Below the pieces are notes generated by a model that ran no database searches, had not been told where the DNA came from, and saw only the letters and a list, made by a program, of their open reading frames with translations. The translations under genes were made by a program, and so were the position numbers. A DNA stretch of 64,000 nucleotides from Octopus vulgaris (taxonomy: Eukaryota). Of the stretch, positions 5,301 to 60,036 are shown piece by piece. Positions within the stretch are counted from its first letter, which is position 1. Each line of letters begins with the position of its first letter. The stretch is taken from NCBI GenBank assembly GCA_951406725.2, contig OX597838.1:41726001-41790000 (forward strand), given 5' to 3'.

Positions 5301-5900
5301 CCTTCTTGTCAGATGCTTCCATAAAAACATCTCTAAATTTCTATCAGTCAGCTGGATCTCTGAGCTTCCATAACCTCTTTTTCCAGGCTGGCTTCTGTCT
5401 CTGAGTCCTTCTAGCTCTAATTCTGAAGTCACTAGCTACTAATCTATGTTAGGTTGTACATTCCTCACCAGAGAAAGACCTTGCATTTGCAAGTTTGTGT
5501 CTATCTCATTGCTGGGTGAGGATGTAATCAATCTGGCTTATGTGTGTCCCAGACTGATGAATGATTAGGTTGCTGGCTGGTTTCCTGAAGCTAGTGTTGC
5601 AGATCATCAAACCATTTGCATTACAGAACTGCAGCAACCTTTTTCCCTCCTCATTCCTAGAGCCAAAGGCATTACCATCATGTACACCTTGGAATCCATG
5701 TGAGTGCTGCCAACATGTCCATTAAAGTCACCAGATTCAATAACCAGGTGTCTGCCATTTGATATTGAGGAAGTCTGCAAAAGGATCTCCTAGAATTGGT
5801 CCTTCTGATCGTCAGCCAGCCTAAGCTGTGGAGCATTGGCAGAGATAAATGTAACTGGTGATTTATCTTAAGCTTAGCCTCAGCTCAACTTTCCCATCAT
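2385..5900 (-). mobile_element. Decayed long RTE LINE (endonuclease, RT, 3' end) interrupted by a PLE fold-back and a SINE
   Basis: RPSKTWDEV (3056-3130), MPNDWCSSIIVDCYK (3981-4232), GDFNG-like endonuclease motif ~5715-5735, (CAT)n tail at ~2385-2398. Confidence 0.85.
4387..4753. mobile_element. Inverted pair of Penelope-type terminal repeats, each with a minimal hammerhead-like motif
   Basis: Arms ~4387-4548 and ~4580-4753 are reverse complements; minus 4431-4475 reads GACAC-CTGATGA-AAGCT..AGCC-GAAA-TGTGTT. Confidence 0.75.
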
Positions 5901-5923
5901 ATATGCTCACCACCTCACTTTAT

Positions 5924-6298
5924 ATCATTCATTGTTTAATGTCCCTTTTCCCATTCTGGCATGGGTTGGATTATTTGACAGTAATTGATGAGCCAAAGGG
6001 TTCTTCTTTTGCATGGCTTCTGCAGCTGGAAGCCCTTCCTAATGCCAACCATTTTGCAGTGTGTACTGGGTGCTTTTTTTCTTGGCAGCAGTACAGGTGA
6101 GGTTGTGAAGCACCTGCAAGACAAGACCCCACCTCAACTGAGTGGAGTCTAGTATTGAAGAAGGGGAGAGTGTAATAGAGGGACAAGAGCAGGAGTCATG
6201 CTGAAGGGGCCAATACATAGCTTTCCCTTCGAGAGAGAGAAAGATGGTGAGGACACACCCTCAAGGTACAAGGTGAATATAAAAGAGAGGATAGAGAT
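5924..6298 (+). repeat. 375-bp direct repeat, copy 1 (RTE 3'-end-derived sequence in minus orientation)
   Basis: Near-identical to 58213-58587; ORFs 5936-6124 and 58225-58413 differ at one residue. Confidence 0.95.
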
Positions 6299-6470
6299 AA
6301 AGGTGGGTGGGCAGATAGTAAGTTAATAAGAGGGTGACAGATAAAACCATAAGCTCTGTGTATAAACACCTTCTTAAAAACAATTGTGTTAATCTTGAAA
6401 AAAATATTTCTTATTATTCTTCACTTCCAAATCTCCTAAACTCTTGTGTTTTTTTTTTCTTGCTTTACAG

Positions 6471-7739: not shown

Positions 7740-9010
<1,271 letters not shown>

Positions 9011-21124: not shown

Positions 21125-22330
21125 GTGCGTGTGAGCATGTGTGTGTGTGAGTGCTTGTGTTCTTCAGTAAAGTATTTTATTGAGAAATTTGTTTTTTTGG
21201 TGAGGAATATTTTGTATTCCTTGGATGCTGATGATAGAATTCATAATTAAGAGGTTTTTGTTTTTTGTTTTTGTAGATGGTTTTGTTGATGTATTTTTAT
21301 TTTTATTTTATTTTCTGTGAGTATAGGTATGTTAGAATTTTCATTTGGTTGAGATTAAAAGACTTCAAGACTTTACAAACACAAACACATGTTCAGAGAT
21401 GTACCCAGATATGCATGAAGAAAACCACCTCTCTGTGAATACACCAAATTCCTTGGAATTCACAGAGAGGTGATTTTCTTCATGTATATCTGGGTACATC
21501 TCTGAACATGTGTTTGTGTTTGTGCTTGTATCCTTTTACTTAAAGCGTATAATTTGTGTGTATGTTTATGGAAATGTGTGTGGTATATAGTATGTTTCAT
21601 TTGGATGGACCGTGGTTTGACACTTGTGTATGTCAAGGACTTTTCTGTGGTGTTTTGTATAATTATGTTATTTCTGTATACAATAAAGGCATTTTCTGGA
21701 ATCATTTATATAAAATGGTTCATAGTTTTTATGTTTATTCTGTTTTCTTTTAACTTCCAGATATATTTAGAGAGAGACGTTGTATTTCTTCTCTTTATGT
21801 TCTGGAATGTATGTATTATATATATCTGTCTTTAAAGTACCTGTTGGTTGTGCCTGTGTAGATTTTTTTTCATTTCCTTTCTTTTCATGAAATATTGTTT
21901 GTTTGTAGATTATTTTAAAGCATCTCTGTAATGTCTGGTCCTTGGTATGTTATTGCTTAATCACTGTATGGCATGCTTTTTATATCTGTACAGCTGTAGC
22001 CAACTTCTGTATTGTTTTTATGGAATAGTTTGTGGTATTTATGTTCAGTTGGGAAGTGTTTGCTGGTTAGTGTGGGTTAGTGTAGTGGTAGTGTACCACA
22101 TTTGTTATGTCATTGAACCAATTGATGTTTCTTTTTTTGTACTTTCTTTGCTTATTTTTCATTTTGGGTGCTTGGGTTTTTTTGGTTTGTTATATTTTGC
22201 TTTCAAATTCACTGGAAGTTAGAGCTTTGATTTAGATTGGTGCTATTTCATTGCTTATTTCTTTGTTGGATGAAATATTGAAGATTTTCTGGCTTATGTT
22301 GTAAACTAAGTTTTTGGTTACCAGTGATAT
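20620..22330 (-). mobile_element. Decayed Penelope-like element(s) with GIY-YIG endonuclease remnants
   Basis: Minus strand ~21740-21865 reads KIYTGTTNRYFKDRY..TFQNIKRRNTTSLSKYIWKLKEN, matching the PLE YIG.T...FK.RY...T.LS..IW.LK pattern. Confidence 0.7.
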
Positions 22331-25493: not shown

Positions 25494-25831
25494 TTAACAA
25501 AATTCTGTCCAGATTTCGTTGTATTTGTAATCCACTTCTGGGCAAGGTGTGATTTGTCCTCCATTAAGTCTGCACTCAGAGAAAAATCGCAAAAGGAGAA
25601 GGGTAGAGTTTTCAAATGATATGATTGGTTGCAGGAATGAAGTGATGTCAAACAAGAGGTAAAACTGTGTGAGGCGTATAATCCATGTCCTGTCTTCGTT
25701 TACAGACAGAGATATCCACATGTTTGTGGCATTCAAGTTCACAGATATATTCGTAGCAACATATGCTAGATGGAGGACAGAGCTCTTGGCTGGAAGCTGC
25801 ATTGACGTGTTGAAGCTGGATGGTGTATTTT
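25494..25831 (-). CDS. Coding exon 3 (probably last) of the same gene (E-NTPSSFNTS...YNEIWTEFC*)
   Basis: Acceptor tcttttttatAG|AA, phase 1 (G+AA=Glu) in frame with exon 2; 111 sense codons of non-repetitive, globular-looking sequence with 4 sequons, ending TAA at 25494. A weak GTTAAG donor overlaps the last codons, so further exons cannot be excluded. Confidence 0.72.
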
Positions 25832-32595: not shown

Positions 32596-32748
32596 CTATT
32601 TTGTCCGTGTGAAAAGACTGCGTTACTTTGTAACAAAAATGGCTACTGTTTGTTGAGGTTCTGGTATTGTTGTTCGAAAGCACTTGATGACTACAGTCTG
32701 AACAGTTAATATGCGAGAAATTAAAACTACTACAATTATTACTACTAA

Positions 32749-32785
<37 letters not shown>

Positions 32786-33123
32786 ATTGTTTTTGTTTTT
32801 GTTGGTGTTATTGGCACAGTTGTTGTCTGTGCGATTGCTGTCTTTAAAAATATTGGAATCATACTTGTTGTTGTAGAATACAGTAGAGACATTGTTAGTG
32901 TTGTTGTTTTTGTTATTGTTGTTGTGATCCAAAGTTGGTGTTGTTTGGTTTACGGCATCTCCTCCTCGCACTGACGAGCTGCCTGCTTCCATTGCATTTG
33001 CTAGTTGTGTTGCATTCATATGAGAAACGTCTGGCTGCTCTCCAACTTCAGACGTCTGTTCTGTCACGTTGGGTGCTCTTGAGGAAGCAGTCAGCTTCTC
33101 TATCAGCGTGGCCAAAAGTCCAG
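32596..33123 (-). CDS. Coding exon 2 of the same gene (S-GLLATLIEKLT...Asn-rich...FHTDKI)
   Basis: Strong acceptor ttttctctttcttttccctcctgcAG|CT, donor G|GTAAAT; 528 nt, phase 1 to phase 1, in frame with exon 1 (T+CT=Ser); 13 N-X-S/T sequons. Confidence 0.82.
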
Positions 33124-33164
33124 CTGCAGGAGGGAAAAGAAAGAGAAAAATTAAGAAAACAATC

Positions 33165-33364
33165 AGCATCATTATTGTCATCATCAACATCATCCTCAAT
33201 ATCATCATCATCATCATCACCATCACCATCATCATCATCATCATCACCATCACCATCGCCATCATCATCATCACCATCACCATCACCATCACCACCATCA
33301 TCATCATCATCATCATCATCACCATCATCACCATCACCATCATCATCATCATCATCACCACCAC

Positions 33365-33432
<68 letters not shown>

Positions 33433-33487
33433 CCATCACCATCATCATCATCATCAACATCATCATCACCATCACCATCATCATCAC

Positions 33488-33519
<32 letters not shown>

Positions 33520-33550
33520 CCATCACCATCATCATCATCATCACCATTAC

Positions 33551-33613
<63 letters not shown>

Positions 33614-33634
33614 GATCCTCATCACCATCATCAC

Positions 33635-33691
<57 letters not shown>

Positions 33692-33701
33692 TACCATCAC
33701 T

Positions 33702-33757
<56 letters not shown>

Positions 33758-33778
33758 GATCCTCATCACCATCATCAC

Positions 33779-33823
<45 letters not shown>
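33165..33823. repeat. ~660-bp (CAT/CAC)n array with 144-bp higher-order duplication
   Basis: Variant motifs CATTAC (33545, 33689) and CATGATCCT (33611, 33755) recur 144 bp apart. Confidence 0.95.
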
Positions 33824-34289
33824 TTATTGCCTGTCTTCCATGTTGAACAGTTTGACAGGATCCAGCAAACCAGAGGGCTTCATTGAGGTCCATATATCAA
33901 TATATATACAGGTGCATGTGTGTCCCACCCATGCCAGTATGGAAGGTGGATTTTTAATGATGATGATGATGATGATATAAACATACACATAGATACACAT
34001 GCATGCACACACACACACACACACGTGCATGCATGTGTGTGTGTGTGTATTTAAGCATTAGACATTAGAACTTAGTGTAGCCCTGTGGCTTGTCTGTTCA
34101 TGTCGGACCATCCAGCCCGTGATAGCATGAAAAAAAGGATGTTAAATGATGTCAATGACAATGATGATGATGATGATGATGATGATGATACTGATGATGA
34201 CATTATGTAAATATATCATAATTCTACATATAGCGACACTTGTCAGAACCAAATCTACGTTTTTTGGGGGGTTTTTTCAGCAATCTAAA

Positions 34290-35158
34290 TCAGTTTAGTA
34301 GTCATATACAGCAAAAAGAGAAGCTAGATGGAAGGTATATTCAGCCATGAAAAGAAGAGGTAAGAAGTGGTCTGGGTTGCAAGACAGAGCACCAGAGAAA
34401 AGTGAGATGCTGGTAAGAAGTAAACTGAGTGGCACTTGTTGCTCCAGCTAAGGCTGAAAAGAAAGATGCAATGAAGGTGATATTATGAGAGGTTGTTGAA
34501 TAAGGAGAATACATGAGCAAAAGAGGGCTCTACTTTATGTAGACCCTACACAGGGACCAGCTACTAAAGTTAAGAATGGTATGATAGATAAAGCAATTAA
34601 GGATATGAAGGAAGGAAGGCACTTTGTCCATCAGGAATTACTCCCAAGATGCTTAAGGAATTGACACATCAGAAAGAGATTCTCTTAAATACTCAGATGG
34701 TTCACTAGAAACAGTTGATTGCTTTTGTTACCAAGGAGATGCAATTAGGAGGGGGGGCGTCACTAAAAATGTATAATTGCTTGAATAAGAACCAAGTTGA
34801 AGAAAGATCAGGAAGCCACGACAACAAGAACCTGCTCCATCTGCTTTTCTCATATTTTATCCCTTATATCCTAGGATAAAACCTCTTCCTACCTCAGGTT
34901 TTAGGGTTCTTGCAAGCTGCATGGCAATGTTACTAGTGCTGGTAAGATGAAAAAAAGCATTCTGTATATGTTATAAAATGGTTGGTGTTAAGAAGGGCAT
35001 CCAGCAGTAGAAACCATGCCAAAGCAGACACTGGAGCACAATGAAGTTCTTGGGTCCATAAGGTTCTGTCAAAGAACCCAACCCATGCCATCATGGGATG
35101 TGGACATTAAATGATGATGGCGATGACGACGACGACGACGATGATGATGATGATGATG
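34290..35158 (+). mobile_element. Highly decayed, internally deleted RTE LINE
   Basis: Similarity to the 2385-5900 copy (DKAIKDMK, PSGITPKMLK), shared 3' end and (GAC/GAT)n tail. Confidence 0.7.
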
Positions 35159-36510
35159 CACACACCTAGTCTTACAGTGTGCATTTAAAAGTGTTTCCAT
35201 AAAGACTGGAAGGTAAAGTGACCTTTCCGTGTCATGCCAGGCTCACGAGGGCCAGTTTCCCAGTTTCAGTGGCGTATAGATTCCTCACCTGGCCGGGACA
35301 CTGATGTGTTGCAGGATGACTCATTTTTGCCAGCTGAGTGGATTGGAGCAACGTGAAATGAAGTCTTTTGCTCAAGAACACACTGCATCACCCGGTCTAG
35401 GAATCAAACCCACAATCCTACGATCATGAGCCCAACACCCTAACCACTAAACCACGTGCCCCCACTTTCCTAAAAACTTTGCTAAATAGGGTCTCTTTTA
35501 ATTCTGAAACCCAAAACAAAACAACACCTCACTTGTCAGATACATTTACCATAAAGAAGACAAATAAGTAATCACAAAGATAGAAAACAATCTTCTTGGA
35601 AAATGGGTCAAAAAATTAATTTATACTTCAGTAAATTCTATCCACGGGGCATTGGCCAACATGAGGCTGTATTAGAAGACATACCATGCAGTAGGATTGA
35701 ACCCATAGCCATGTGGTTAAGAAGTGAACATTTTAACCACATGGTTATTGTGTGAGCTTATAGAAAAGAAGAGAGGAAGGCATTTAACCCATTTCAGTAC
35801 AACAAATCCACCTTGCAAAGTTAATTTGGTTGTTCATAGCAGAGATATCACACAGACTGATGTTTTGGTAGCAATTGCAGAAATTCATTCTCATAACCCA
35901 TCACAAATGTCATTACCCTCTTTGTTAGGGGTGTGTGAGAGAGGTGTGTGTGCACATGCACACTCACACCCACGCTCCAGACACAAGGAGGGGGTGCAAA
36001 GATGCAGTTCCTATAATGGGATTCTAGTGTAAATATATCTATTTGCACAATGCACAATTTCTTTGAAATTATATAGTCTACAACTTTAGGCCTTTTGCTG
36101 TTTTTTCTTTTTCTTTCGCAGCTTCTATTTACAAACTGGCAGAACATCTAATGCTGCATACACAGGCAGAAAAGTAATGATAAATGGCCTAGAATTACTC
36201 CAAATGAATGCATATTTGGTTTAATAACATTTCCCTTGAAAAGTTACCTTTCCTGTAAAAAATAGAATCGTTACTGGTGTTCTAATGAACTGTGCCCAAT
36301 ATCAGTAGAAAATATTTTGTAATTTAAGGAGTCTAAATGAAGTAAATCTAATTGGAAAATATCAAATAAGAGCACAAGATTAAGTAAATATGAAAACAAT
36401 TTTATTTCATTTGAAAGAATTATTGCACAAATTATAATCCTTTTATTTTATTTATTTTAAAATAAATTTTAAAGAATGGTTAGAAACTAGAGTGTTAACT
36501 TCTCATCTCC

Positions 36511-37600
36511 CAGATCTTGTTATCCTTGGCGATGGACATATTTTGTTAATTAAATACATGCACCACTACAGACATGTTTTTAATCGACAAAATATAATCA
36601 TCTCCAAGTATAACAATATTTCCCTCTGGTCTTTACCAGATATTTTTGTAGTCCTACAGTAAATAGTCTTTAATAGTTTTTCTAGCTTTCATGTTAAGTA
36701 TAACCTGTGTCAGCTTTTAAGTTATTCTAATAGCAGTCACTTTCTTATTTTTACCTGTCTAATCTTTCTAATTTATTTAGCTTCCAGTTGAGAATAATAT
36801 AAATCATAACTCCCCCACCACCACCACCACCTCCACTGAACTATTGATATCCATGATGTTATTTCTGACATTGAGATCACCTTTAAGAATTAATCTTTTG
36901 TGTCTTGAATATTTCTTTGTAATATTTTCTTTCGTTTCTCTCTCATATATTCTGTCTGATTCATTAATTCTTTTTTGTAATTCTTCAGTCTATATTTGAT
37001 CTAATTACCTCTATTTCTTTATCTAACTTCCCGTTAGTAGTTGAATTAATTGTTTTTCTATTTCAAGGTTAATTTGACATGTTTTTTTTTTCTAAATGGA
37101 CTTTCACATCAGTTCTTCTTTCACATTTGTGTCCAGCCTGGTTTAATAAATTGGTTAAAGCTGTTAATGCCAGACAAGAAAAAGGGTAGAAAGAAGGGGC
37201 TCCCTTTGGATGTATTCCTCTTCTAATTAAAAGGATGGGATTCCTTTTAATCATTCCCTCTTTTGTCTGTATCTTAGATATTGTTTACCATTTAGTCATG
37301 GCCTGTTAGATATAGTCCCTTGTCATTGTACTACTCCACCTCATGGCTAATACATACATACATACACACACATACGTACATACATACATACATACATACA
37401 TACATACATACATACATACATACATACGTACGTACATACATACATACATACATACATACATACATACATACATACACACATACATACATACATACATACA
37501 TACTTATATATATAATGTAGGTAGGTATGGTAAAATCTCAGCTGTTTCCTCTTGAAGCACATCTGCTTATTCCATTATGGAAGTGTTGGTACTCATCTTC
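36511..37600 (-). repeat. Left arm of 1.1-kb near-perfect inverted repeat
   Basis: Reverse complement matches 42873-43997; identical 61-aa ORFs at 37069-37254(-) and 43257-43442(+); only a handful of substitutions and microsatellite length differences seen. Confidence 0.97.
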
Positions 37601-37729
37601 AAAATAGAGATGAGTAACAACACTTCCATGCAGAATACTTAAACAATTGTGAAGTTCACTTCACATGAAACCATTGGTAGCCTTGTTAGCTCACAAATAA
37701 AAAAAGTATATATATATACATATATATAA

Positions 37730-38180
37730 AGGGAAAGTTTACGAAAATAAACAAAAGACGAAGGCAGGTGGAGTACAAGCAAACAAATGTATTAGTATAG
37801 TGCTCAGGAATAGAAAAAGTGTTTTACATTTCGAGCCTACACTCTTCGACAGAAAGATACACAGAAAAAAATGCGTGCAGGAGCTAACGATCTATCATGG
37901 CATCCTGACTTCGGACAGTGGTCAGACGCAAGAGGGACAGCAGGGGAGATAACAGGGTCAAGTGACTTCCAATACGAAGGTGCCCCCAACACAAAGGTGT
38001 GTGTGTGTATAAGAGAGTATGTATGTGTGTGTGAAAGAGGGCTGGTGGTCTGGACGTGTGTGTGTGTGTATGTGTGGGTGGTGTGTTGTGATGTGATGTG
38101 TAATGTTGTATGGTGTAGAGTAGTGTGGTGTGATGTTGTGGGGAGGTGGGGGAGGCGAGAGTGGGGAAAGCATAGGTGGG
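37730..38180 (-). mobile_element. PLE-terminal-like element in (TA)n with hammerhead-like core (second copy 46422-46574)
   Basis: Minus 37821-37856: TTT-CTGTCGA-A-GAGT-GTAG-GCTC-GAAA-TGTAAAA; shared AAACAAAAGACGAAGGCAGGTGGA block with 46473-46497. Confidence 0.55.
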
Positions 38181-40289
38181 GTGTATATATATATATATAT
38201 GATTTTGATTTTGATTTTTCCAGTTTCAGCTAATGAGCTGTGGCCATGCTGGGGCACCGCCACCTATATACACATATGTATATATTTCTCCCTCATTTCT
38301 ACCCCATCTTCATTCCTTTTATCCATCCAATCACTGTTACCCATTCTAAAATGTGAGTAGTCACGTGGCTCCTCTACATCAACAAACTTGTTCTTCTCTG
38401 AGGTGTTAACTTCTCATCTTCCAGTGTAAATCTGCACCCTTGGGATTCATAACCTTGCAGGCTGCATGATTACCTCACTTGTTACCATAGTTACCCATGG
38501 CAAAAACCACCCAGGACTTACTGTGGAGTGGTTGGTGTTAGGAAGGGTTTTGAACCATAGAAACTCTGCCAAACCAGAGACTGGAGCATGATGCAGTCCT
38601 TGGACTTCTCAGATTCTGTCAAGCCATCCAACCTATGCCAGCAGGGAACATGGATGTTAAATGATGATTTTATATATATTTTATATAATCGCCAAAGCAG
38701 ACACTTGAGCATGATTCAGTCTTTGAACTGATCAGATCCAACCAACCTATGTCAGCATGAAACTGGACATTGAATTTGGACATGATCAGGTGTGATTCAT
38801 GAGTAGCAAAAAATCACAATATATGAATTAAAGAGAACAGCATTTTATAATGATCTTATGGACAAAACATGTTACGTAACTTAGTTTTGCACAAGGCTCA
38901 GGAGACTTACGATCCCCAGAGATGCTTGCTTGGATCTGGAATAGCTTCAACAAAATGACTGCGGAGAAAGTGATAGCCACATCTACTAAGCATGATAGGA
39001 AAGTGTATAAAAGTATTATAAACAAATATTTTTAGTGCAAAGGTGATAAATCAGGGATCAAGCCTGAAGACTTACATCCCCTGATATGAGAACTGATAAA
39101 ACAAATTAGCCAGAAGGGAGAAAAAGAAGTGATGATAGGGATGGAAGAACAGATAAAGGATAGATATAATGAAAGACGAAAATAGCTAAATCTAGAGGAT
39201 GAAGGGGAAAATGAAAGGAAGGAAGAGAGGAATAAAAGAAAAAAGAGTGCATTAAGGTCAGATGGTGAAAAGTGATTGAGATATATGGAGCAATGGTGAC
39301 ACCTTATAGTGGATTAGACCAGTACTGGAGGATGTATTTTGTCTGGTGCAAGTAAAGTGATCAAGTCTCAGATTTACCAGTCAAGTATGGTCCAGGTCTT
39401 AGTGAGTTCTTTAGTATTAGTCATCACTTTTTCACTGAACGCAATCTGAATTTTATGCTATTCTCTGAGTAAAGCTTGCATTTTCTAATTAGTTTCATCT
39501 AATATCATATTCTGCAGCTTCCACCTTCAAAAGCTATTTGTACTTGGCCAGTGTAGAGATGCTTCACTTCTCATAGCTCGTTAATCACTTGATGTGACTG
39601 GACAAGTATACCTTGAACAGGTTCTCCATCATACTACGGTAGCATTTCAGACTGGAAGCATTATTCTTTGAACCTGATTTCCACCCCATACACAGCAACC
39701 TCTATGTTGTGGTGAGTATTAAATGGGCACATGATGTTATCTCCTCATGAATAACTGATCTTAGTACTAGGGGGGTGGACTTGTGTGAAAGGAGACACTT
39801 CATGCTGGTTGTGCAGCTAAAAGAACCCTAACCCTTACTAAATAGCTCCCTATATTTATGAGTGAGAAGAAAAGGATTTGTCAACCAACCTAAAGGAAGG
39901 TCTTAACTATACTGGAGTTCAAGAGAAAGGACGTATAGACAAACTATCTTTATGATACCATTAACACCATTTTCTTCGAGGGTGGGTTATTCTGGCTGGG
40001 TATGAAATTAGTCTTCTCTTTGAACTTAATTGCTGTTAGGCTGTTGTTTTAATCACCACACAATATTTCCACACAAAAGATCTGACCTCAGATCCTTCTA
40101 TGTACCCAGTGTCAATGAAGGAGAGTTTCTCATTGGGATTATAGATGGGCTCGGATGAACTAGTTTCTGTCATGATACTGAATCTGAAAGGCTTGAAATA
40201 ATATTCTTCCATAAATTATCTGAGGAGAATCCATTGGTGCTATGGATGCTCTCTTATTTGTGAGACAACTACAAGAGAATTTGGTCTTT

Positions 40290-40505
40290 TATTTAAAAAG
40301 TAAGCCTTTCTATTTAACATTTATTGATGTGGAGAAGGCTTTTGACAGGGTACCATGGTCTGTAGTTTGGTGGTCTCTAAGAAAACTAGTTTAGATGAAA
40401 TTGTTTGGGAGAGCAGCACAAGTCCTGTACAGAGATGCAGTTAGCAAAATAAGAGTCGGCAAGGAATTCAGTGAGAAATTTAATGTGCAAATAGACATTC
40501 AACAG
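40290..40505 (+). mobile_element. RTE reverse-transcriptase fragment
   Basis: FIDVEKAFDRVPWSVVWWSLRKL reads through 40319-40390. Confidence 0.8.
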
Positions 40506-40714
40506 TCTCAATTATGTTGCATAAACTGAGAAAATAATGGCTGTTACTTTGCTGTAACTGGTTTAAGCTTAAATCTTCTGTCAAATGTTCTGCTTCAATT
40601 ACTTTATCCATTTCTCTGCCACCAGTATGCGGATTTCACCCAAACCAACATTGTTAACTACACTGATGAATTTTACTCATGTCCTTTGTTTGTGATTGTG
40701 TCTGGGTCAATCTA

Positions 40715-40936
40715 TTAACCCTTTTGATATCAACTTGCCTGAGACCACTCCTGCCTCTATGACACAAACATCTTATTTTAAAGCAATCTCAATTGAAACA
40801 TTCCATCAAAAGTTCATATGTCCCAAGAACCAGCATAATAATGGCAAACTTATTTTGCTAAATTCTTTGTTATTTTCCAAATGAATTGAAACAATGGCAG
40901 TATATTTCAAAAGAAATATGGTAACAGAAAGATAAA
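40715..40936. mobile_element. piggyBac-like MITE, decayed
   Basis: Starts TTAA-CCCTTTTGATATCA, ends TGGTAACAGAAAGATAAA (degenerate inverted terminus). Confidence 0.45.
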
Positions 40937-41813
40937 CTACAAGTGGTGACGGCACAGGAGTTCAATGGAGTTAGGCCTTAGTCACCACAACTCCCAGGAC
41001 TGCTTGAAGTGGTAGAACCTACCAAGGACCCCAGTTATCGGTCAAATAACTGAAAAGCATACAGGACTTGGAGGAGGGTTGGCCCATCGATACATCTCAC
41101 ACAGGCCCACAGGTATGTGGATATGTGAACCAGTACCCCTGCCGAAGAGTTCAAAAAGTCCTGTGCCTCAAAGGTAAGCTCAAGGGAGCAGAGAAAACTG
41201 TAAATAAACAACAGAAGGTGACAGGCACACATTGCTGTAGCTTTCTCAAGAGAAATCAAGAATCTTCAGACGTTGGGATGAAGGTCCATAGGGCCAATAG
41301 GCAGGGAACATGAAGAGTGGGGTGGGGGTGCTGTCTGTGTCTGAGCATGTGCACGTGTGTGTGTGTGTGTGCATGCAAATGCATGAATGTAAGGTCTATA
41401 TTGAAATGTGCACTATAATTTCACAAAGCACTCATAAATCATGTAGGATTCGTGCTGCCTTCAGCTGTGCGCTTTGACAATTACAAAAATAAAAAAAAAT
41501 TTTTTAAAAAACCCACAATATTAACTGCAAATTGAATTGAGGTCAGAAAATGCTAAATGTCTTGGCCATGATGTCAGTGCAGCACCAGTGAAGGTTTGTG
41601 ATTCATTAACATTCTGGTTGGCAGGTCAAAAGCCCCATTGAGACAGACTTCTGTAACCCTCTCGCATGGGAAAGGAAATAAAAAAAATAAATCATGAAAA
41701 ACATATAATCGCTCCCACAAACATACGCAATGTACACACATATATACATATACATGAATGTGTGCATGTGTGTGTACGTATATGTATGTACATACATACC
41801 TATATACACACAA

Positions 41814-41870
<57 letters not shown>

Positions 41871-41935
41871 TAATCCAAACAAGAAAACAAAAAGACAACA
41901 ACGCAAGGATGTGGAACATATATATATACATACAT

Positions 41936-41990
<55 letters not shown>

Positions 41991-42872
41991 CATACATGCA
42001 TACATACTTTTACATACACACACACAGATACATATATATGCATATTTGTATACATATATAAACATACATATACACACATATGTATATATATATATATGCA
42101 TATGCACATTATATGTATGTATATGTATATGTATATATTGTTGTTGTTGGCATCCTTTTGTCTCGGGACACAATGGAGTTGCGCATAAACTAATCCAGTC
42201 TGGTTTTTACATTTCATGTCCTCTCCAGTTTCCTCTCCAGTTTTGTCATATATATATATCCGTATGGCAATAAGAAAATGGAGGGGATCAAGAGGTGGTA
42301 GTCATCAACTTTTAGACATTATGTTCTGTCTATTTATTTATTTTTTAAAAAGAGAATTATACATACATGTATAACATATTATGCTTTACATATATAAAAT
42401 TACCAGTAATTATTGAAATATTAAATGTAGAACTGACTTTGGGCAAAACAAATACAGGAGGATCAGTTAATGGGATTTTATTGAATGTATTCTGCTCTCA
42501 GATTCACACACTTTTTGCAGCGGTCCTTCAGTTTTTTAAGCCCTGTAAAAGAACTCAGAGGGTTGAGCCTCCAACCAGGCCTTTTGCAATACCCTTAAAG
42601 CCAGGAATTTTCAGCATCCCCTCATATAAACAGCAGTAGAAAAGAAACAGATATAAATACAGAATAGAGGAAATTTTTGTATTCAATTATTTACTGGAAG
42701 CTTGTGTGAAATATAGCAAAACTGATATTATGAAAAGTAGTAGCCATGAGTGAAGTAGTTCAAATGACAAGGAACTATATCTAACAGACCAAACGGTAAG
42801 CAATACCAAAGATACAAATAAAAGATAGATTTATTAAAATGAATCTTATAAGAAGAGGAATATATTGAAAGG

Positions 42873-43997
42873 GAAGATGAGTACCAACACTTCCATAATG
42901 GAATAAGCAGACGTGCTTCAAGAGGAAACAGCTAAGATTTTACCATACCTACCTACATTATATATATAAGTATGTATGTATGTATGTATGTGTGTGTGTG
43001 TATGTATGTATGTATGTATGTATGTATGTATGTATGTATGTATGTATGTATGTATGTATGTATGTATGTACGTATGTATGTATGTATGTATGTATGTATG
43101 TATGTATGTATGTACGTATGTGTGTGTATGTATGTATGTATATATGTATGTATGTATGTATTAGCCATGAGGTGGAGTAGTACAATGACAAGGGACTATA
43201 TCTAACAGGCCATGACTAAATGGTAAACAATATCTAAGATACAGACAAAAGAGGGAATGATTAAAAGGAATCCCATCCTTTTAATTAGAAGAGGAATACA
43301 TCCAAAGGGAGCCCCTTCTTTCTACCCTTTTTCTTGTCTGGCATTAACAGCTTTAACCAATTTATTAAACCAGGCTGGACACAAATGTGAAAGAAGAACT
43401 GATGTGAAAGTCCATTTAGAAAAAAAAAACATGTCAAATTAACCTTGAAATAGAAAAACAATTAATTCAACTACTAACGGGAAGTTAGATAAAGAAATAG
43501 AGGTAATTAGATCAAATATAGACTGAAGAATTACAAAAAAGAATTAATGAATCAGACAGAATATATGAGAGAGAAACGAAAGAAAATATTACAAAGAAAT
43601 ATTCAAGACACAAAAGATTAATTCTTAAAGGTGATCTCAATGTCAGAAATAACATCATGGATATCAATAGTTCAGTGGAGGTGGTGGTGGTGGGGGAGTT
43701 ATGATTTATATTATTCTCAACTGGAAGCTAAATAAATTAGAAAGATTAGACAGGTAAAAATAAGAAAGTGACTGCTATTAGAATAACTTAAAAGTTGACA
43801 TAGGTTATACTTAACATGAAAGCTAGAAAAACTATTAAAGACTATTTACTGTAGGACTACAAAAATATCTGGTAAAGACCAGAGGGAAATATTGTTATAC
43901 TTGGAGATGATTATATTTTGTCAATTAAAAACATGTCTGTAGTGGTGCATGTATTTAATTAACAAAATATGTCCATCGCCAAGGATAACAAGATCTG
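42873..43997 (+). repeat. Right arm of the inverted repeat; contains PLE-terminal remnant, (TATG)n and a decayed LINE APE-endonuclease fragment
   Basis: Match to 36511-37600 reversed; LKGDLNV (GDFN-type motif) at ~43624-43645 amid frameshifts and stops. Confidence 0.95.
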
Positions 43998-44480
43998 TTG
44001 CAACACACGATTTTGCATCAAGAATCTTGTAAAACAAATACAGAAATGTAATAAAGGGAAATTAAAGGAAAAATCTTGAAAACTTGAATAAAAAGAAAAG
44101 AAAAACAATAACAAACAGCATTTAGTCTTCAGGAAAACAACAGAGCAATAACAAAACAAAAAAACTATATAATGAAGAAAAAAGAAAGTAAACTAAAAGC
44201 TGGATTAAAGGTGAACACTCTGAGCTGTTTGTGAGTAAAGGCATTGCATAAGCAATACCTGATACGACTGAGTGAATGAAGACGAAACTCAGAGTTTTCT
44301 CTTGCGTTCCTGGCTAGAAACTTTCACAAGTATAAAGTAACTGCAGGATATGTGGAATCCATGTGGAAACAATTAATCACATTCTTTCTAACTAATCAGT
44401 CTTAATTAAAACACATGGCAGAGTTGGAAGTTTTATTCACAGGTAACTAGAAGGAAATACATCAAACAGAAAAATATGAA

Positions 44481-44545
<65 letters not shown>

Positions 44546-44695
44546 GCATACATACTTTATTTAAAAGCAGCAGAAATATAACAATATTTCTGCTGCTTTT
44601 AAATAAAGCATATTACTCTACCTCTGGTATTTGAGTACTCTTTTTTCCACCTTGTTTCACATTTATGTGCTTACTCCGGTATATATATATACATA

Positions 44696-44731
<36 letters not shown>

Positions 44732-44783
44732 CACACACACACACACACACACACACCTCTGTATATATATACACACATACATA

Positions 44784-45688
44784 CAAGGGGTACCCCAAAG
44801 TAACCTGAAACATTCCCTGTGGGACAAACCCTTTGTAGTTCAGGCTTCTGCCACTGGAAGCCACTTGATGCAACCCTCAGGCATCAGTCTGCCAACTAGC
44901 AGCATCAGGTGGAGTCATGCTTTCATGTGGTGCATTTTTGTTTTGCAGTACTTCTCTCTTGTTTTTTGATTTTTGTGATGGCTGAAACAAAGGAACAGCG
45001 TGCTTCCATGAAATTCTGTTTCCTGCTGAGGAAAACGGTAACCAAAACAGTTGTCATGCTTCAAACAGCTTTAGAAAGACACGGCCATGAGCAAAACACA
45101 AGTTAACAAGTGGTTTTCATGCTTCAGGAATGGTCATTTGTCACTTGAAGACCAACCTCATACAGGACCACTGTCGACCTCCCAAATGAATGAAAGCATT
45201 ACGAAAATTCATGAACTGATCTTGGAGTACCATCACCAAACAAGTGAAGAACTTGTTGATATGACTGGTGTATCCTGGAGTTCCTGCCAATGATTTTTGA
45301 GTGAGGAATTGCGAATGCAAAGAGTTGCAGCAAAATTTGTCTTGCTTGTTGACGGAAGATCAAAAGCAGTCACGACTGAATGCTTGTTGTGAAATGAAAG
45401 AACAGTTGGAAGTTAATCCAGACGTTTTTTGCAAAGGTCATTACTGGTGATGAAAAGTGGTGTTATGAAATTTGCAGATGGGCAAAAGGTGAAGGGAAAA
45501 ACGATGGAAGCATTAAAGGACATCACTTTGCAAGAGGCCCAGCACTGCTTTGAAGAGTGATAGACATGGTTGGACCGATGCATTGCTTCAAATGGTGAAT
45601 ACTTTGAAAGCAAAAAAAGTGTAAATATGTGAAACTGTGTGAATAAAATAATGTTACAAAATTCTGGTTTCTTTTGGGTATCCCTTAG
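44784..45688 (+). mobile_element. Internally deleted mariner (Tc1/mariner) transposon with both TIRs
   Basis: TIRs CAAGGGGTACCCCAAAGTAACCTGAA / TTCTGGTTTCTTTTGGGTATCCCTTAG after TA; transposase fragments EQRASMKFCFLL, MSKTQVNKWF, VITGDEKWCY. Confidence 0.92.
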
Positions 45689-45695
45689 AACATAT

Positions 45696-45754
<59 letters not shown>

Positions 45755-46308
45755 TGTCGTTACGTTACAATAATTTCATGAAAAAACAATTTTTCATGAA
45801 ATTGAAGGAGTAAAAGATTTATTATTATTCTTTAACAAGAATTGTAGAGACAGTGACTTCGCAGTTTTGAAGTTAAATATATAATATTGTGGGGTGGGGG
45901 TGAGAGTGTGTGTGGAGGGAGGGGTGATTATGTGTGTGTGTGTGTGTGTGTTTGTGTGTTTGCGTGTGTGCATCTTTGAGATTGGCCTACCACTGCTTCA
46001 CAACTGGTGTGGGTTTATTTATGTCCTCATAACTTTCAGCTGAAAGAGTTTGACAGGATCAGAATCAAAAAAGGGTTTCATTTTACTAAATCCTTGTATG
46101 GTTGCTGACAAGTGATAGAAACAATTGAAAGAATAAAAAATACAAACATATACACTCACACATTTTTATATATACGCATACATATACACACATACATATA
46201 TATATTTCACATACATGCACACTAACACATACACACACACATAAACATTTGTATACATACATATATACATATATACATACATGTATATATATATATATAC
46301 ATATATGG

Positions 46309-46422
<114 letters not shown>

Positions 46423-46847
46423 CGGGAAGCTTTATGAAAATAGACAAAAGACGAAGGCAGGTTTACGGAAATAAACAAAAGACGAAGGCAGGTGGAATAC
46501 AAACAAACAATTGTATTAGTATGGCGCTCAGGAAATATAAATAAAACAAGTCTTTAATGTTTCGAGCCTACGCTATATATATATATATATATATATATGG
46601 ATGTATACATATATATATATTATTTCTTTACTGCCCACAAGGGGCTAAACATAGAGGGGACAAACAAGGACAGACGTGTTTAAGTCGATTATATTGACCC
46701 TAGTGTATAACTGGTACTTAATTTATCGACCCCGAAAGGATGAAAGGCAAAGTCGACCTCAGCGGAATTTGAACTCAGAACGTAAAGACGGACGAAATGC
46801 TGCTAAGCATTTCGCCCAGCGTGTTAACGTTTCTGCCAGCTTGCCGC

Positions 46848-46907
<60 letters not shown>

Positions 46908-46915
46908 TACATGAA

Positions 46916-46946
<31 letters not shown>

Positions 46947-47460
46947 TTGTGCAAGTGGAGCCAGTCATCCCTTATCATCAGATTTGCCTTGCCCTTGAGT
47001 CTACCATACTGTCACTGTTTTAGGTGCATATGTACCGTTGAGGAGACATAGACATACTACTGCCCCACCCCCTCACCTCACCCTTGACACGTACTTGTAG
47101 TGCATCACCAAATCATCATCATCATCATCATCTTCAAGCATTCGTTTATCTTCTTGTGTTACATTTGCAACGAAGCTCCCTTATGACTTGTTCCCAAAAA
47201 GAAGCACTTCTCCTTTCATCCCGTCTGCAGAGTCCCACATTGAAATGCAGTTCTCTAGCACCAATGGGTGTGCATCCATCTGCAGAAATCTGCAATGTGG
47301 TTAGGACTGTGGTGGTTGCTACATCTGCAGTTAGGTCGTTGTATTCCGCATTTGATGTGCACCAAATTATTTTATCAATTGCTCTCGTTAGTTTTGTTTT
47401 TGTTAAGTTTATTATTAATTAGATTTATTAATTGCAGCTTAGAATGTAATTCCCTTTCGC

Positions 47461-47462
<2 letters not shown>

Positions 47463-47498
<36 letters not shown>

Positions 47499-48047
47499 TG
47501 TATGTATGTATGTATGTATGTGTGTTTGTATGTATGTGTGTATGTATGTGTGTATGTATGTATGTATGTATGTGTGTGTGTATGTATGTATGTATGTATG
47601 TGTGTATGTATGTATGTGTGTTTGTATGTGTGTATGTATGTATGTATGTGTGTATGTATGTGTGTATGTCTGTATGTATGTGTTTGTATGTATGTATGCA
47701 TGTATGTGTGTATGTATGTATGTATGTGTGTATGTATGTATGTATGTGTGTATGTATGTATGTATGTATGTATGTGTGTATGTATGAATGTATGTGTGTA
47801 TGTATAGGCAATAAAAACAAAACTGTATGCATAGTGAATGTTTACCACTGGCACCAGAACCAGAACCATCACCATGTAAACCACCTCCATCACCAACACC
47901 ACCATGTGAAGCACATCTACCACCACTGCCGCCACCGCCGCTACCATCACCACCACCCCTGCCACCACAACCACCACCACCACCAATACCAACACTATTT
48001 GAACCATCACCACCATCATCATCACCAACACCACCGCCACCATCACT

Positions 48048-48090
<43 letters not shown>

Positions 48091-48240
48091 CCATCGTCCC
48101 CACTACCATTGCCTCTGTCAGTTGTGTTAGTGGCAGTGATATTGATGATGCTGATGCTGATGTTGATGATGAGAGTAGTGGTGGTCATGGTTATGATGGT
48201 TGTGTAACAGCTATTGCTGTTGGTGTTGCCAATGAAATTA
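47463..48240. repeat. (CA)n, (TATG)n and (CAC/CAT)n simple-repeat cluster
   Basis: Directly visible. Confidence 0.95.
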
Positions 48241-48597
48241 GTGAATATCGTCAAACAATAACAGGAAAATAAATACCAAAAAGAGGTGGGATTTAACCAG
48301 CAAAATCCACAACAATAGCAATAATAATAATCATAATCATAATAATAATAATAATAATAATAATAATGGTTTCTATTAGAAGAAATATTCTAAGAAAGAG
48401 AGGGAGGGGAGATGAAGAGAGGAAGAGAGCAAGAAGAAAAGAAAGAGGAATCTTAGCAAAACAGGAATTGTGGGAATTGTTTCATAGTGTTGTTGTTTTT
48501 AAGGGGGTAGGCAATTTTTGTATATATAGATTTGGTTTTTTTTTTTCATATTTTTTTTAGCATATTTGTCAAAGAAAGCCATAAAAATCTCACTCAC

Positions 48598-48913
48598 ATT
48601 GCGTTTCCGGGACTGCACCATGGCCATGTGGCTGCACTGGTTGTGACTGCAGTTGAGACTGGAACAGCTGTCTGTAAAGCTGTGCGTATAATTCTGATGA
48701 CAGACGCATTCCAATCCTTGTGGAATTCACTATCCGACTTGCAAGAGAACCGGTTTGTGGCTTAGGAGGTTCACTGATGTTTGCCGAGGGAATCTGTTCC
48801 TTCAAGCTCTGCACGAAAGATCTCGCAATCTGGCCAGAGCTGGTGAGATTCAAAGCACTGGCACCGCAACAAAATCTGGTGAGGAAGAGAATCAGTAGGA
48901 GATTCCACTTCAT
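48598..48913 (-). CDS. Coding exon 1 of an uncharacterised secreted glycoprotein (MKWNLLLILFLTRFCCGASA-LNLTSSGQ...PETQ)
   Basis: ATG at 48913; signal-peptide pattern (K, hydrophobic LLLILFL, ASA cleavage motif); non-repetitive ORF ending at a consensus donor T|GTGAGT (48597-48592), phase 1; long pyrimidine tract upstream (48970-49050 on minus) implies a preceding non-coding exon. Confidence 0.82.
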
Positions 48914-58212: not shown

Positions 58213-58587
58213 ATCATTCATTGTTTAATGTCCCTTTTCCCATTCTGGCATGGGTTGGATTATTTGACAGTAATTGATGAGCCAAAGGGTTCTTCTTTGG
58301 CATGGCTTCTGCAGCTGGAAGCCCTTCCTAATGCCAACCATTTTGCAGTGTGTACTGGGTGCTTTTTTTCTTGGCAGCAGTACAGGTGAGGTTGTGAAGC
58401 ACCTGCAAGACAAGACCCCACCTCAACTGAGTGGAGTCTAGTATTGAAGGAGGGGAGAGTGTAATAGAGGGACAAGAGCAGGAGTCATGCTGAAAGGGTC
58501 AATACATAGCTTTCCCTTCGAAAGAGAGAAAGATGGTGAGGACACACCCTCAAGGTACAAGGTGAATATAAAAGAGAGAATAGAGAT
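58213..58587 (+). repeat. 375-bp direct repeat, copy 2
   Basis: Near-identical to 5924-6298. Confidence 0.95.
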
Positions 58588-60036
58588 GCAGGTACAGAAA
58601 AGGCAGGCAGTAGGTAGGTGGGGTGACGTGAAAAGAGTGCGACAAATAGAGATGAGGATTGGGGGTAGACCCAGTGAATACCTGGTTCTTTGGGGAGGAG
58701 AGAAATGAAGGAAAAAACAGTAGGCAAGGGAGGAGGAGGAGGAGGAAGTGATAGGGACAGTAACAGGGAGACAATGTCAAGTGGAGTGACATAAATGGTT
58801 TCATTTACAGCATCTGAGTCACTTTCATCATCATCATCATCATCATCGTTTAGCGTCCGCTTTCCATGCTAGCATGGGTTGGACGGTTCAACTGGGGTCT
58901 GTGAAGCCAGAAGGCTGCATCAGGCCCAGTCTGATCTGGCAGTGTTTCTACAGCTGGATGCCCTTCCTAACGCCAACCACTCCGTGAGTGTAGTGGGTGC
59001 TTTTTACGTGCCACCCGCACAGGTGTCAGACGGAGCTGGCAAACGGTTTTCTAAATACAAACACACACATAATTTGTAATAATGAAATCAAACCAAATAA
59101 TAATATTTTGAAAGTATTTAATATGTTTATATAAATTACGTCTAATTAAATTACATATAAATTACAAAATTTTAATTTTTTTAGTTTGTCTTTGGTCAGG
59201 AAGTGTTATTTCCTATTTGCTTTTAACTCAAAATCAAAAGAAATGACTGCTATTCCCTTCAAACTTCACTTTTCTGACCTGGACATCAATGTTTTGAAAC
59301 TGACCTATTTCCCATTACATTTCAGACAGATTCAGCATCTAAGTTGCTGAAGCAGAAATATCATTATAGCAAATCTTCTGCACAATACCACAGATTTGCT
59401 TGACCTTAATCATTTGAGAATGTCCCTTGGTGGCTGACAATATGTGCATATCAGACCATGAGCAGGAGTAGTGGAGGAGCATCATAGCCATGTGTTGAGA
59501 GGGATTCTTTGAGAGGGGTTTGAATAAATATAACAAATACAAATTTCACTGGAAATATTAGCCATTTTACATACTTTCTAGGGATCAGCATACAGGAAAC
59601 AGTTGGTACCCAAGGAATAAAAAAAGGGTTACACAGTGTCGTGAATTATTTGGGGCTACAACAATAAGTCAATACAGGGTAAGAATTAATGACAAATGTC
59701 AATTTTTAACACATGATACAAAACAATAGGGGTCATTTCAGTTTGTAGCAGGTCTTCCACAACAAATCCTTGTTTCAAGAACTGTGAATCTCATCAGTTG
59801 CTAAAAAAAAGAACAATAAGATAAAATCCTTCTTTGACTAGGAGCCTTTAATAATGTGGCAATGTAAGATTAGGTAGATAGCTGGCTATAACAGATGAAG
59901 GGGCCAAAAAGCTTCCTGCAGTTGTGTATGTTGATGGGGTGGGGTAGAGAGATCTCTCCAGAATAAGACAGAATGATTAATAATGGCTTAAACAATTTGA
60001 TTGAACAAGTTTAACTCGGGACTGAACGATACGTCG

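What the first reader, a model, noticed from the sequence alone, without database searches (positions are those of the whole stretch)
36511..43997. Young 1.1-kb inverted duplication enclosing 5.3 kb inside an intron
Seen: arms 36511-37600 and 42873-43997 are ~99% identical, including interruptions in the (TACA)n tract, although their content is an old decayed LINE fragment, so the identity is not explained by two independent insertions. Both arms lie in one intron, so the pre-mRNA could form >1 kb dsRNA. Known: coleoid cephalopods have extensive ADAR A-to-I editing and long inverted repeats drive editing, endo-siRNA and inversion. Inference: editing/splicing modulator or an inversion-polymorphic segment.
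Basis: partly seen in the sequence, partly recalled or inferred. Interest (0 to 1): 0.7.

Follow-up and report, generated by a model that had tools for sequence, protein, structure and literature searches.

The report
Hairpin-bounded micro-inversion scar in octopus intron
Inside an intron of an octopus gene, 1.1 kb of old jumping-gene debris is present twice, back to back around 5.3 kb, and both ends of the copy sit at small DNA hairpins; it is likely the harmless scar of a copying error that probably also flipped the DNA in between.

Summary
The inverted pair is real: arms 36511-37600 and 42873-43997 differ by 5 substitutions and one 3-bp indel outside the (TACA)n tract, occur only twice in the 2.8-Gb genome, and lie in intron 1 of a three-exon gene. 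Short-read contigs of other samples show the same outer junction and about double depth, so it is no assembly artefact. The arm is no transposon but a mosaic: R4-like LINE debris between two fold-back hairpins of Penelope-like repeats. The right arm is the donor (its LINE and repeat run on beyond it). The inner end is whole only on the left, which suggests the 5.3-kb loop is inverted relative to the ancestor. A 22-nt templated insert with 5- and 3-nt microhomologies sits at the left junction. Best reading: replication template switching at the two hairpins gave an inversion with one duplicated breakpoint flank, a known kind. Plain inverted insertion without a flip remains possible. Editing, small RNA and orientation polymorphism are untested; no function is indicated. 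The scan noted a similar 565-bp inverted intron copy elsewhere in this genome (e1-9856754).

The parts
36511..37600 (-). Left arm: derived copy of the right arm at its outer end; its inner 22-24 nt form a hairpin with the adjacent E repeat
42873..43997 (+). Right arm: donor position on its outer side; inner end cut at the top of the E hairpin stem
37601..42872 (.). 5,272-bp loop of mixed old repeats, inferred to be inverted relative to the ancestor
   Evidence: inference
36492..36513 (+). 22-nt templated insert at the left outer junction (21 of 22 like 38403-38424; 22 of 22 like the copy in L117); 5-nt microhomology to the left flank, 3-nt to the arm
38403..38424 (+). Likely template of the insert; native inside an old repeat family (38317-38668; RTE-like 3' end, label recalled)
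36140..36496 (+). Old repeat family H, cut off at 36496; its continuation was not found in 464 kb
37577..37629 (.). E fold-back hairpin: 22-bp stem, 9-nt loop, -21.8 kcal/mol as DNA, z -8.8; inner arm end 37598-37600 is the top of the stem
37598..37723 (+). Body of repeat family E (85-90% to other copies), Penelope-like by structure only
43889..44055 (+). Repeat family G: 106-bp fold-back (43889-43994; -26.4 kcal/mol, z -6.2) plus 3' part that is present only on the right; hammerhead core in other copies
42895..42958 (+). 64-bp 3' end of repeat family F, fused to the 22-nt E head; this fusion occurs only in the two arms
42959..43161 (+). (TATG)n tract (165 bp in the left arm, 37350-37514)
43161..43889 (+). 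Decayed LINE reverse-transcriptase region (aa 390-661 of an 870-aa family ORF with RVT_1 and zf-RVT); R4-like label recalled
44324..44473 (+). Continuation of the same LINE (CCHC region) beyond the right arm only
42737..42874 (+). X: old 72-75% paralogue of arm 43158-43310, cut at the right inner junction
48598..48913 (-). Host gene coding exon 1 (aa 1-105)
32596..33123 (-). Host gene coding exon 2
25494..25831 (-). Host gene coding exon 3; the 390-aa product has no Pfam family
33124..48597 (-). Intron 1 (15.5 kb), holds both arms

Best explanation
The two arms are one 1.1-kb stretch of old repeat debris copied once in inverted orientation, likely by replication template switching at two fold-back hairpins, in an event that probably also inverted the 5.3-kb loop and is probably neutral. 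Shown: two copies only; right arm native at its outer end; E hairpin whole only on the left; arm ends at the two stems; 22-nt insert from 1.9 kb away with microhomologies; same outer junction in other samples. Inferred: ancestor = flank A, reversed loop, one arm, flank D; the fork stalled or broke at the hairpins; the strand left A, copied 14-22 nt at 38403-38424, entered at the base of the G hairpin, copied arm and loop on the opposite strand and rejoined at the top of the E hairpin. One step, or an inverted insertion followed by a flip between the arms, give the same sequence and are not told apart. If the intron is transcribed the arms would form long dsRNA that ADAR would likely edit, as a by-product.
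For: Donor side: family G runs across 43997 to 44046-44055 in 4 of 4 matching loci first examined and in the copies printed; the LINE resumes at 44324-44473; neither on the left. Inner end: the 22-nt E head abuts an E body only on the left, making a fold-back, and 5 of 23 other E copies carry a 5' inverted copy (0 of 13 and 3 of 14 in two control families); E has only 3 matches in 1.0 Mb of control DNA, so a chance meeting of a stray head with a second E body is unlikely; the head-F fusion exists only in the arms. Breakpoints: inner end 0-2 nt from the stem top, outer end 0-6 nt from the stem base depending on how the stem end is drawn; such hairpins occur 27 times in 1.0 Mb, about 0.0008 per breakpoint for a 3-nt margin (post hoc). 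Templated insert with 5- and 3-nt microhomology, the pattern of complex MMB-TI events (PMC8421209, section 10). One-sided inverted duplications of 46 bp to 1.9 kb at inversion breakpoints are common in Drosophila (PMC1885836, passages). Other samples: X7 contig bridges the left junction (36414-36836); in X2 and X4 the flank contig stops 30 letters inside the arm and an arm contig starts at 36511 with depth 88 vs 37.3 and 47.6 vs 30.1; X6 covers 42632-42900 in one piece.
Against: No outgroup shows the ancestral order. X (42737-42874), an old paralogue of the arm's LINE start that carries upstream LINE sequence, lies in the same direction just before the right arm and shares 31 non-majority positions with it (against 14 and 11 private); this fits an old, unflipped loop as well. 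The inverted E part is atypically short (positions 8-32; in the 5 other copies it reaches positions 104-119). E's own upstream sequence offers 6-9 nt of microhomology that could have joined the arm to an unrelated E body. X2, X4 and X6 reach only 28-30 letters into the arm, under the tool's 31-letter bar for bridging. Template switching versus nicking and end-joining cannot be separated from sequence.
Confidence: 0.55

Rival explanations
1. No inversion: the arm was copied backwards into a break next to an E repeat 5.3 kb away (templated insertion), and the loop keeps its old orientation; the left hairpin is then a product of the event.
Against: Needs an orphan 22-nt E head on the right and a second E body close by in the right direction (3 E matches per 1.0 Mb).
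Confidence: 0.2
2. Same inversion, but made by staggered nicks (for instance cleavage at the two hairpins, 1.1 kb apart on opposite strands), fill-in and end-joining with a short templated patch.
For: Geometry equals the one-sided staggered-break class of PMC1885836 (passages); ends at stem top and stem base.
Against: Needs 1.1 kb of unwinding; the 22-nt insert and the loss of family H's continuation point to synthesis-driven repair.
Confidence: 0.15
3. The repeat is kept by selection as an ADAR, small-RNA or splicing modulator of the host gene. Not exclusive of the origin above.
For: [quoted passage not shown]
Against: Arms 3.4 and 4.6 kb from splice sites, no modelled exon in the loop; content is decayed repeats; arm-to-arm difference (0.5%) is of the size of sample-to-reference differences (2-4 in 1,041; 4 in 586; 4 in 269), so youth alone explains the identity; 7 shorter close inverted pairs per 1.0 Mb.
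Confidence: 0.06
4. The arms are the long terminal inverted repeats of a foldback-type transposon, or a retrocopy made by a Penelope-like enzyme.
For: Overall shape; Penelope-like pieces at both ends.
Against: Two copies only; no target-site duplication around the pair; right arm is continuous with its flank; the left copy lacks G's 3' end, where reverse transcription would start; the 22-nt repeat is not a target duplication because 38403-38424 is native on both sides.
Confidence: 0.02
5. Assembly artefact.
For: None beyond the high identity.
Against: Arms differ; junction and doubled depth in independent samples.
Confidence: 0.01

Closest known systems
Inversions with inverted duplication of one breakpoint flank, Drosophila melanogaster group (PMC1885836; abstract and 12 passages)
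   Same: Formerly single sequence now inverted at both ends of the segment; one-sided; size within the 46 bp-1.9 kb range reported
   Different: Loop of 5.3 kb, not megabases; intronic; ends at retroelement hairpins; templated insert; inversion inferred from repeat continuity, not from an outgroup
Complex microhomology-mediated templated insertions, MMBIR-like (PMC8421209; abstract and section 10 part 1)
   Same: Several nearby templates, reverse-direction copying, short microhomologies, quasi-palindromes involved
   Different: Copied tract here is 1.1 kb (6.4 kb if the loop was copied in the same step); germline and shared across samples
Inversions between inverted repeats that recur (PMC3961182; abstract)
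   Same: Near-identical inverted repeats around a few kb could recombine and flip the loop
   Different: Their repeats were 1.6-24 kb; recurrence here is untested; the repeat seems a result of the event, not its first cause
Penelope-like element insertions with inverted 5'-truncated copies (PMC8557442; 12 passages)
   Same: E and G show inverted 5' copies and end in microsatellites; G has a hammerhead core in some copies
   Different: They supply the two hairpins; the 1.1-kb arm is not itself such an element

Membership tests
Inversion with breakpoint duplication | Formerly single sequence duplicated in inverted orientation at both ends | tested here: met
Inversion with breakpoint duplication | Enclosed segment reversed relative to the ancestral order | tested here: inconclusive
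   E hairpin for, paralogue X against; no outgroup order obtained
MMBIR/FoSTeS-type templated event | Microhomology at junctions | tested here: met
   5 nt and 3 nt at the left outer junctions; 2 nt at the right inner junction is inferred
MMBIR/FoSTeS-type templated event | Short insert templated from nearby DNA | tested here: met
   36492-36513 vs 38403-38424
MMBIR/FoSTeS-type templated event | Dependence on replication or break-induced synthesis | not testable with these tools
   needs experiment
Foldback / long-TIR transposon | Dispersed copies with the same ends and a target-site duplication | tested here: not met
Penelope-like element (families E, G) | Inverted 5'-truncated copy next to the body | tested here: met
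   E 5 of 23; G 9 of 23 (query held the fold-back, so biased; 2 of the 9 are distant inverted hits)
Penelope-like element (families E, G) | Hammerhead motif in the pLTR | tested here: inconclusive
   Recalled core pattern with stem II in 4 of 23 G loci, 2 of 23 E loci, 1 of 16 F, 0 of 42 in three other sets; no Rfam hammerhead among the 150 rows shown of 155
Penelope-like element (families E, G) | RT plus GIY-YIG coding body | not tested
   only 3' ends were fetched
R4-clade LINE (arm core) | Non-LTR RT followed by CCHC and restriction-like nuclease | tested here: inconclusive
   RVT_1 1.7e-27 and zf-RVT 2.7e-5 in a family ORF; nuclease and tree not tested; clade name recalled
ADAR-edited intronic inverted repeat | A-to-G clusters in RNA against matched DNA | not testable with these tools
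   no RNA laid
Recurrent inversion polymorphism | Both orientations among individuals | not testable with these tools
   all 24 listed runs are short contigs that break at the arms

The most novel reading that the evidence does not exclude
Fold-back hairpins left by Penelope-like insertions act as base-precise breakpoints for micro-inversions in octopus genomes: here two of them, 1.1 kb apart, set both ends of a duplication that inverted 5.3 kb and created a fixed, flip-prone, ADAR-ready inverted repeat. If general, dead retroelement hairpins would be a source of local rearrangement in cephalopods.
Probability: 0.25. Interest if true: 0.6.

Novelty: new member of a known kind. Interest (0 to 1): 0.3.

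Why it matters
As a single locus it is a well-resolved rearrangement scar without a shown function. Its value is mechanistic: both ends map to retroelement hairpins and one junction holds a templated insert, which gives a testable rule (do young local inverted duplications in octopus end at such hairpins?). It also offers a natural test of whether a new 1.1-kb intronic duplex is edited and whether repeats this short let a loop flip.

Tried and rejected
Target-site-duplication reading of the 22-nt direct repeat: rejected, 38403-38424 is continuous with its family on both sides. Direct ancestral join of flank A to the loop's far end: no family copy spans it. Continuation of family H: not found by a profile of 10 copies in 464 kb. 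Outgroup polarisation: X14, X15 and X16 gave nothing on 42632-42900, and X16 has no cover at 36430-36491; blanks prove nothing. In X16 one contig fits 36511-36835 and goes on for 237 unlike letters, another fits 36955-37157 and goes on for 835; letters not shown, so unresolved. No RNA holder listed. Gene conversion between arms: 18 difference rows were not shown, so shared changes could not be checked. Rfam on 20 of the repeat loci gave only simple-repeat noise. Protein search with a 71-aa arm fragment found nothing; a genome search did. Pfam on 9 frames and on the host protein gave no family above cut-off for the gene. Paper search 'Penelope' + 'inversion breakpoints' + 'hairpin' gave 0 papers in the held library; this is one search of open papers only, and I recall, unchecked, reports of Penelope at Drosophila virilis-group inversion breakpoints. 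No supplements were read. Control scan dropped hits under 300 bp, under 90% or of low complexity; its five 200-kb blocks were my choice (two adjacent, three arbitrary).
Full report
Observation. Outside the (TACA)n tract they differ by 5 transitions and one 3-bp indel in about 925 bp; the tract is 165 bp on the left and 203 bp on the right. The 830-bp non-repetitive part has two matches in the 2.8-Gb genome; the next best is 80% over 107 bp (40 of 154 candidates scored). In 1.0 Mb of control DNA there were 7 inverted pairs of at least 300 bp and 90% within 10 kb (longest 635 bp) and none of at least 1 kb and 95%.

Host gene. A minus-strand frame matched two NCBI proteins, O. sinensis (100% over exon 1) and O. 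bimaculoides (92%). They map to three coding exons with GT-AG introns. Both arms lie in intron 1 (48597-33124), 3.4 kb from the acceptor and 4.6 kb from the donor. The 390-aa product starts with a hydrophobic, signal-like stretch, is Asn-rich and has no Pfam family.

Not an artefact. Contigs of four runs were laid on 35500-37345. In X7 one contig bridges the left outer junction (36414-36836). In X2 and X4 the flank contig ends 30 letters inside the arm and a second contig starts at 36511 at 2.4 and 1.6 times the flank depth: the graph signature of a two-copy repeat, though under the tool's 31-letter bar for bridging. So 3 of 4 runs show the junction or its signature; the fourth, the distant X16, does not settle it. 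Of four runs laid on 42632-42900, X6 covers it in one piece and three gave nothing. These samples differ from the window by 0.2-1.5%, the same order as the arms from each other, so the event is about as old as their split or a little older.

Anatomy of the arm. Read on the right arm: 22 nt of the head of repeat family E, 64 bp of the 3' end of family F, the (TATG)n tract, about 730 bp of decayed LINE reverse-transcriptase region, and the 106-bp fold-back of family G. E and G look like Penelope-type ends: inverted 5' copies in 5 of 23 and 9 of 23 loci (the G count is biased by the query), and a hammerhead core in 4 of 23 G loci. That structure is described for such elements in PMC8557442 (passages); coding bodies were not tested.

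Which end is native. Outer end: G runs on to about 44055 and the LINE resumes at 44324-44473 on the right only, so the left arm is the copy there. Inner end: only on the left does the E head meet an E body, forming a 22-bp stem with a 9-nt loop; on the right the arm begins at the top of that stem, against a cut LINE piece X. If one ancestral arm was joined both to flank D and to the reversed E body, today's loop is inverted. Against this, X is an old paralogue of the arm's LINE start (72.5% to it, 56-62% to 9 other copies; 31 shared non-majority positions) and lies in LINE order before the right arm, and E's upstream sequence offers microhomology that could have joined the arm to an unrelated E. 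But E gave only 3 matches in 1.0 Mb and the head-F fusion occurs only in the arms, so I favour inversion by about three to one.

Junctions. Left of the arm an old family H stops at 36496. Then come 22 nt (36492-36513, the first 5 shared with H and the last 3 with the arm) that match 38403-38424 at 21 of 22 and a 93% copy 0.4 Mb away at 22 of 22. The template is native in its own family, so this is a templated insert, not a target duplication. With the 3 shared letters given to the insert, the arm starts at the end of the G palindrome (43994 by BLAST; strict stem end 43991). The inner end lies 0-2 nt from the top of the E stem. Hairpins of this strength occur 27 times in 1.0 Mb, about 0.0008 per breakpoint. 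The figure is post hoc, and if the loop was never inverted only the G end counts.

Mechanism. Best: template switching at the two hairpins, copying insert, arm and loop from the opposite strand and rejoining at the E stem (0.55). It resembles the complex templated events of PMC8421209 (section 10) and, in geometry, the one-sided inverted duplications at Drosophila inversion breakpoints (PMC1885836). Inverted insertion followed by a flip between the new arms gives the same sequence. Rivals: insertion without inversion (0.2), staggered nicks with end-joining (0.15), transposon or retrocopy (0.02), artefact (0.01). PMC13334657 (abstract only) describes much smaller inverted triplications and is not a match.

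Function. A 1,083-bp duplex is possible in the pre-mRNA, and squid data place ubiquitous edits in introns, 3' UTRs and repeats (PMC9068888, passages), so editing is likely if the intron is transcribed; nothing here shows it or gives it a role. Flipping between 1.1-kb arms is plausible by analogy with human inversions between 1.6-24-kb repeats (PMC3961182, abstract) and is untested.

Verdict. Real, shared, young; a new member of a known kind of rearrangement, most likely neutral. The one point of wider interest is the match of both ends to retroelement hairpins. Interest 0.3.

Noticed in passing
window 5924-6304 and 58213-58593: 381-bp direct duplicate, 98% alike, 52 kb apart; next best match in the genome 75% (40 of 3,135 candidates scored): a second young local copy of old repeat debris in this window.
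   Followed up: partly
L117 (G000:C25:41364994-41365106) vs window 38370-38482: 93% copy sharing a distinctive deletion, 0.4 Mb away on the same contig: an older local copy event; could also be the source of the 22-nt insert.
   Followed up: partly
window 42737-42874 vs 43158-43310: Old 72-75% duplicate of a LINE stretch; may mark an earlier rearrangement or a 5'-inverted LINE insertion at the same place (breakpoint reuse).
   Followed up: partly
window 25494-48913 (minus): Three-exon gene for a 390-aa Asn-rich protein with a signal-like start; only two relatives found, both Octopus (longer proteins only); NCBI names are automatic low-complexity labels.
   Followed up: partly
window 44555-44608 and 21375-21523: Further fold-backs (25-bp and 68-bp stems).
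   Followed up: no
window 37707-38185: Young high-copy repeat (up to 93% elsewhere, 5,618 candidates) inserted behind the E body.
   Followed up: no
window 33162-33823: 660-bp (ATC)n tract ending 40 bp before the exon-2 acceptor on the gene's strand; 1.27-kb (TA)-rich tract at 7740-9010.
   Followed up: no
L171 (C1 block 4836-6009) and L220 (C20 block 92177-92992): Short young inverted pairs, 465 and 314 bp, 97.8%, spacers 245 and 189 bp; candidates for the hairpin-end test.
   Followed up: no
run X16, arm 36955-37157: In the distant organism E a contig leaves the arm at 37157 and goes on for 835 unlike letters, so the inner part of the arm may differ there.
   Followed up: no
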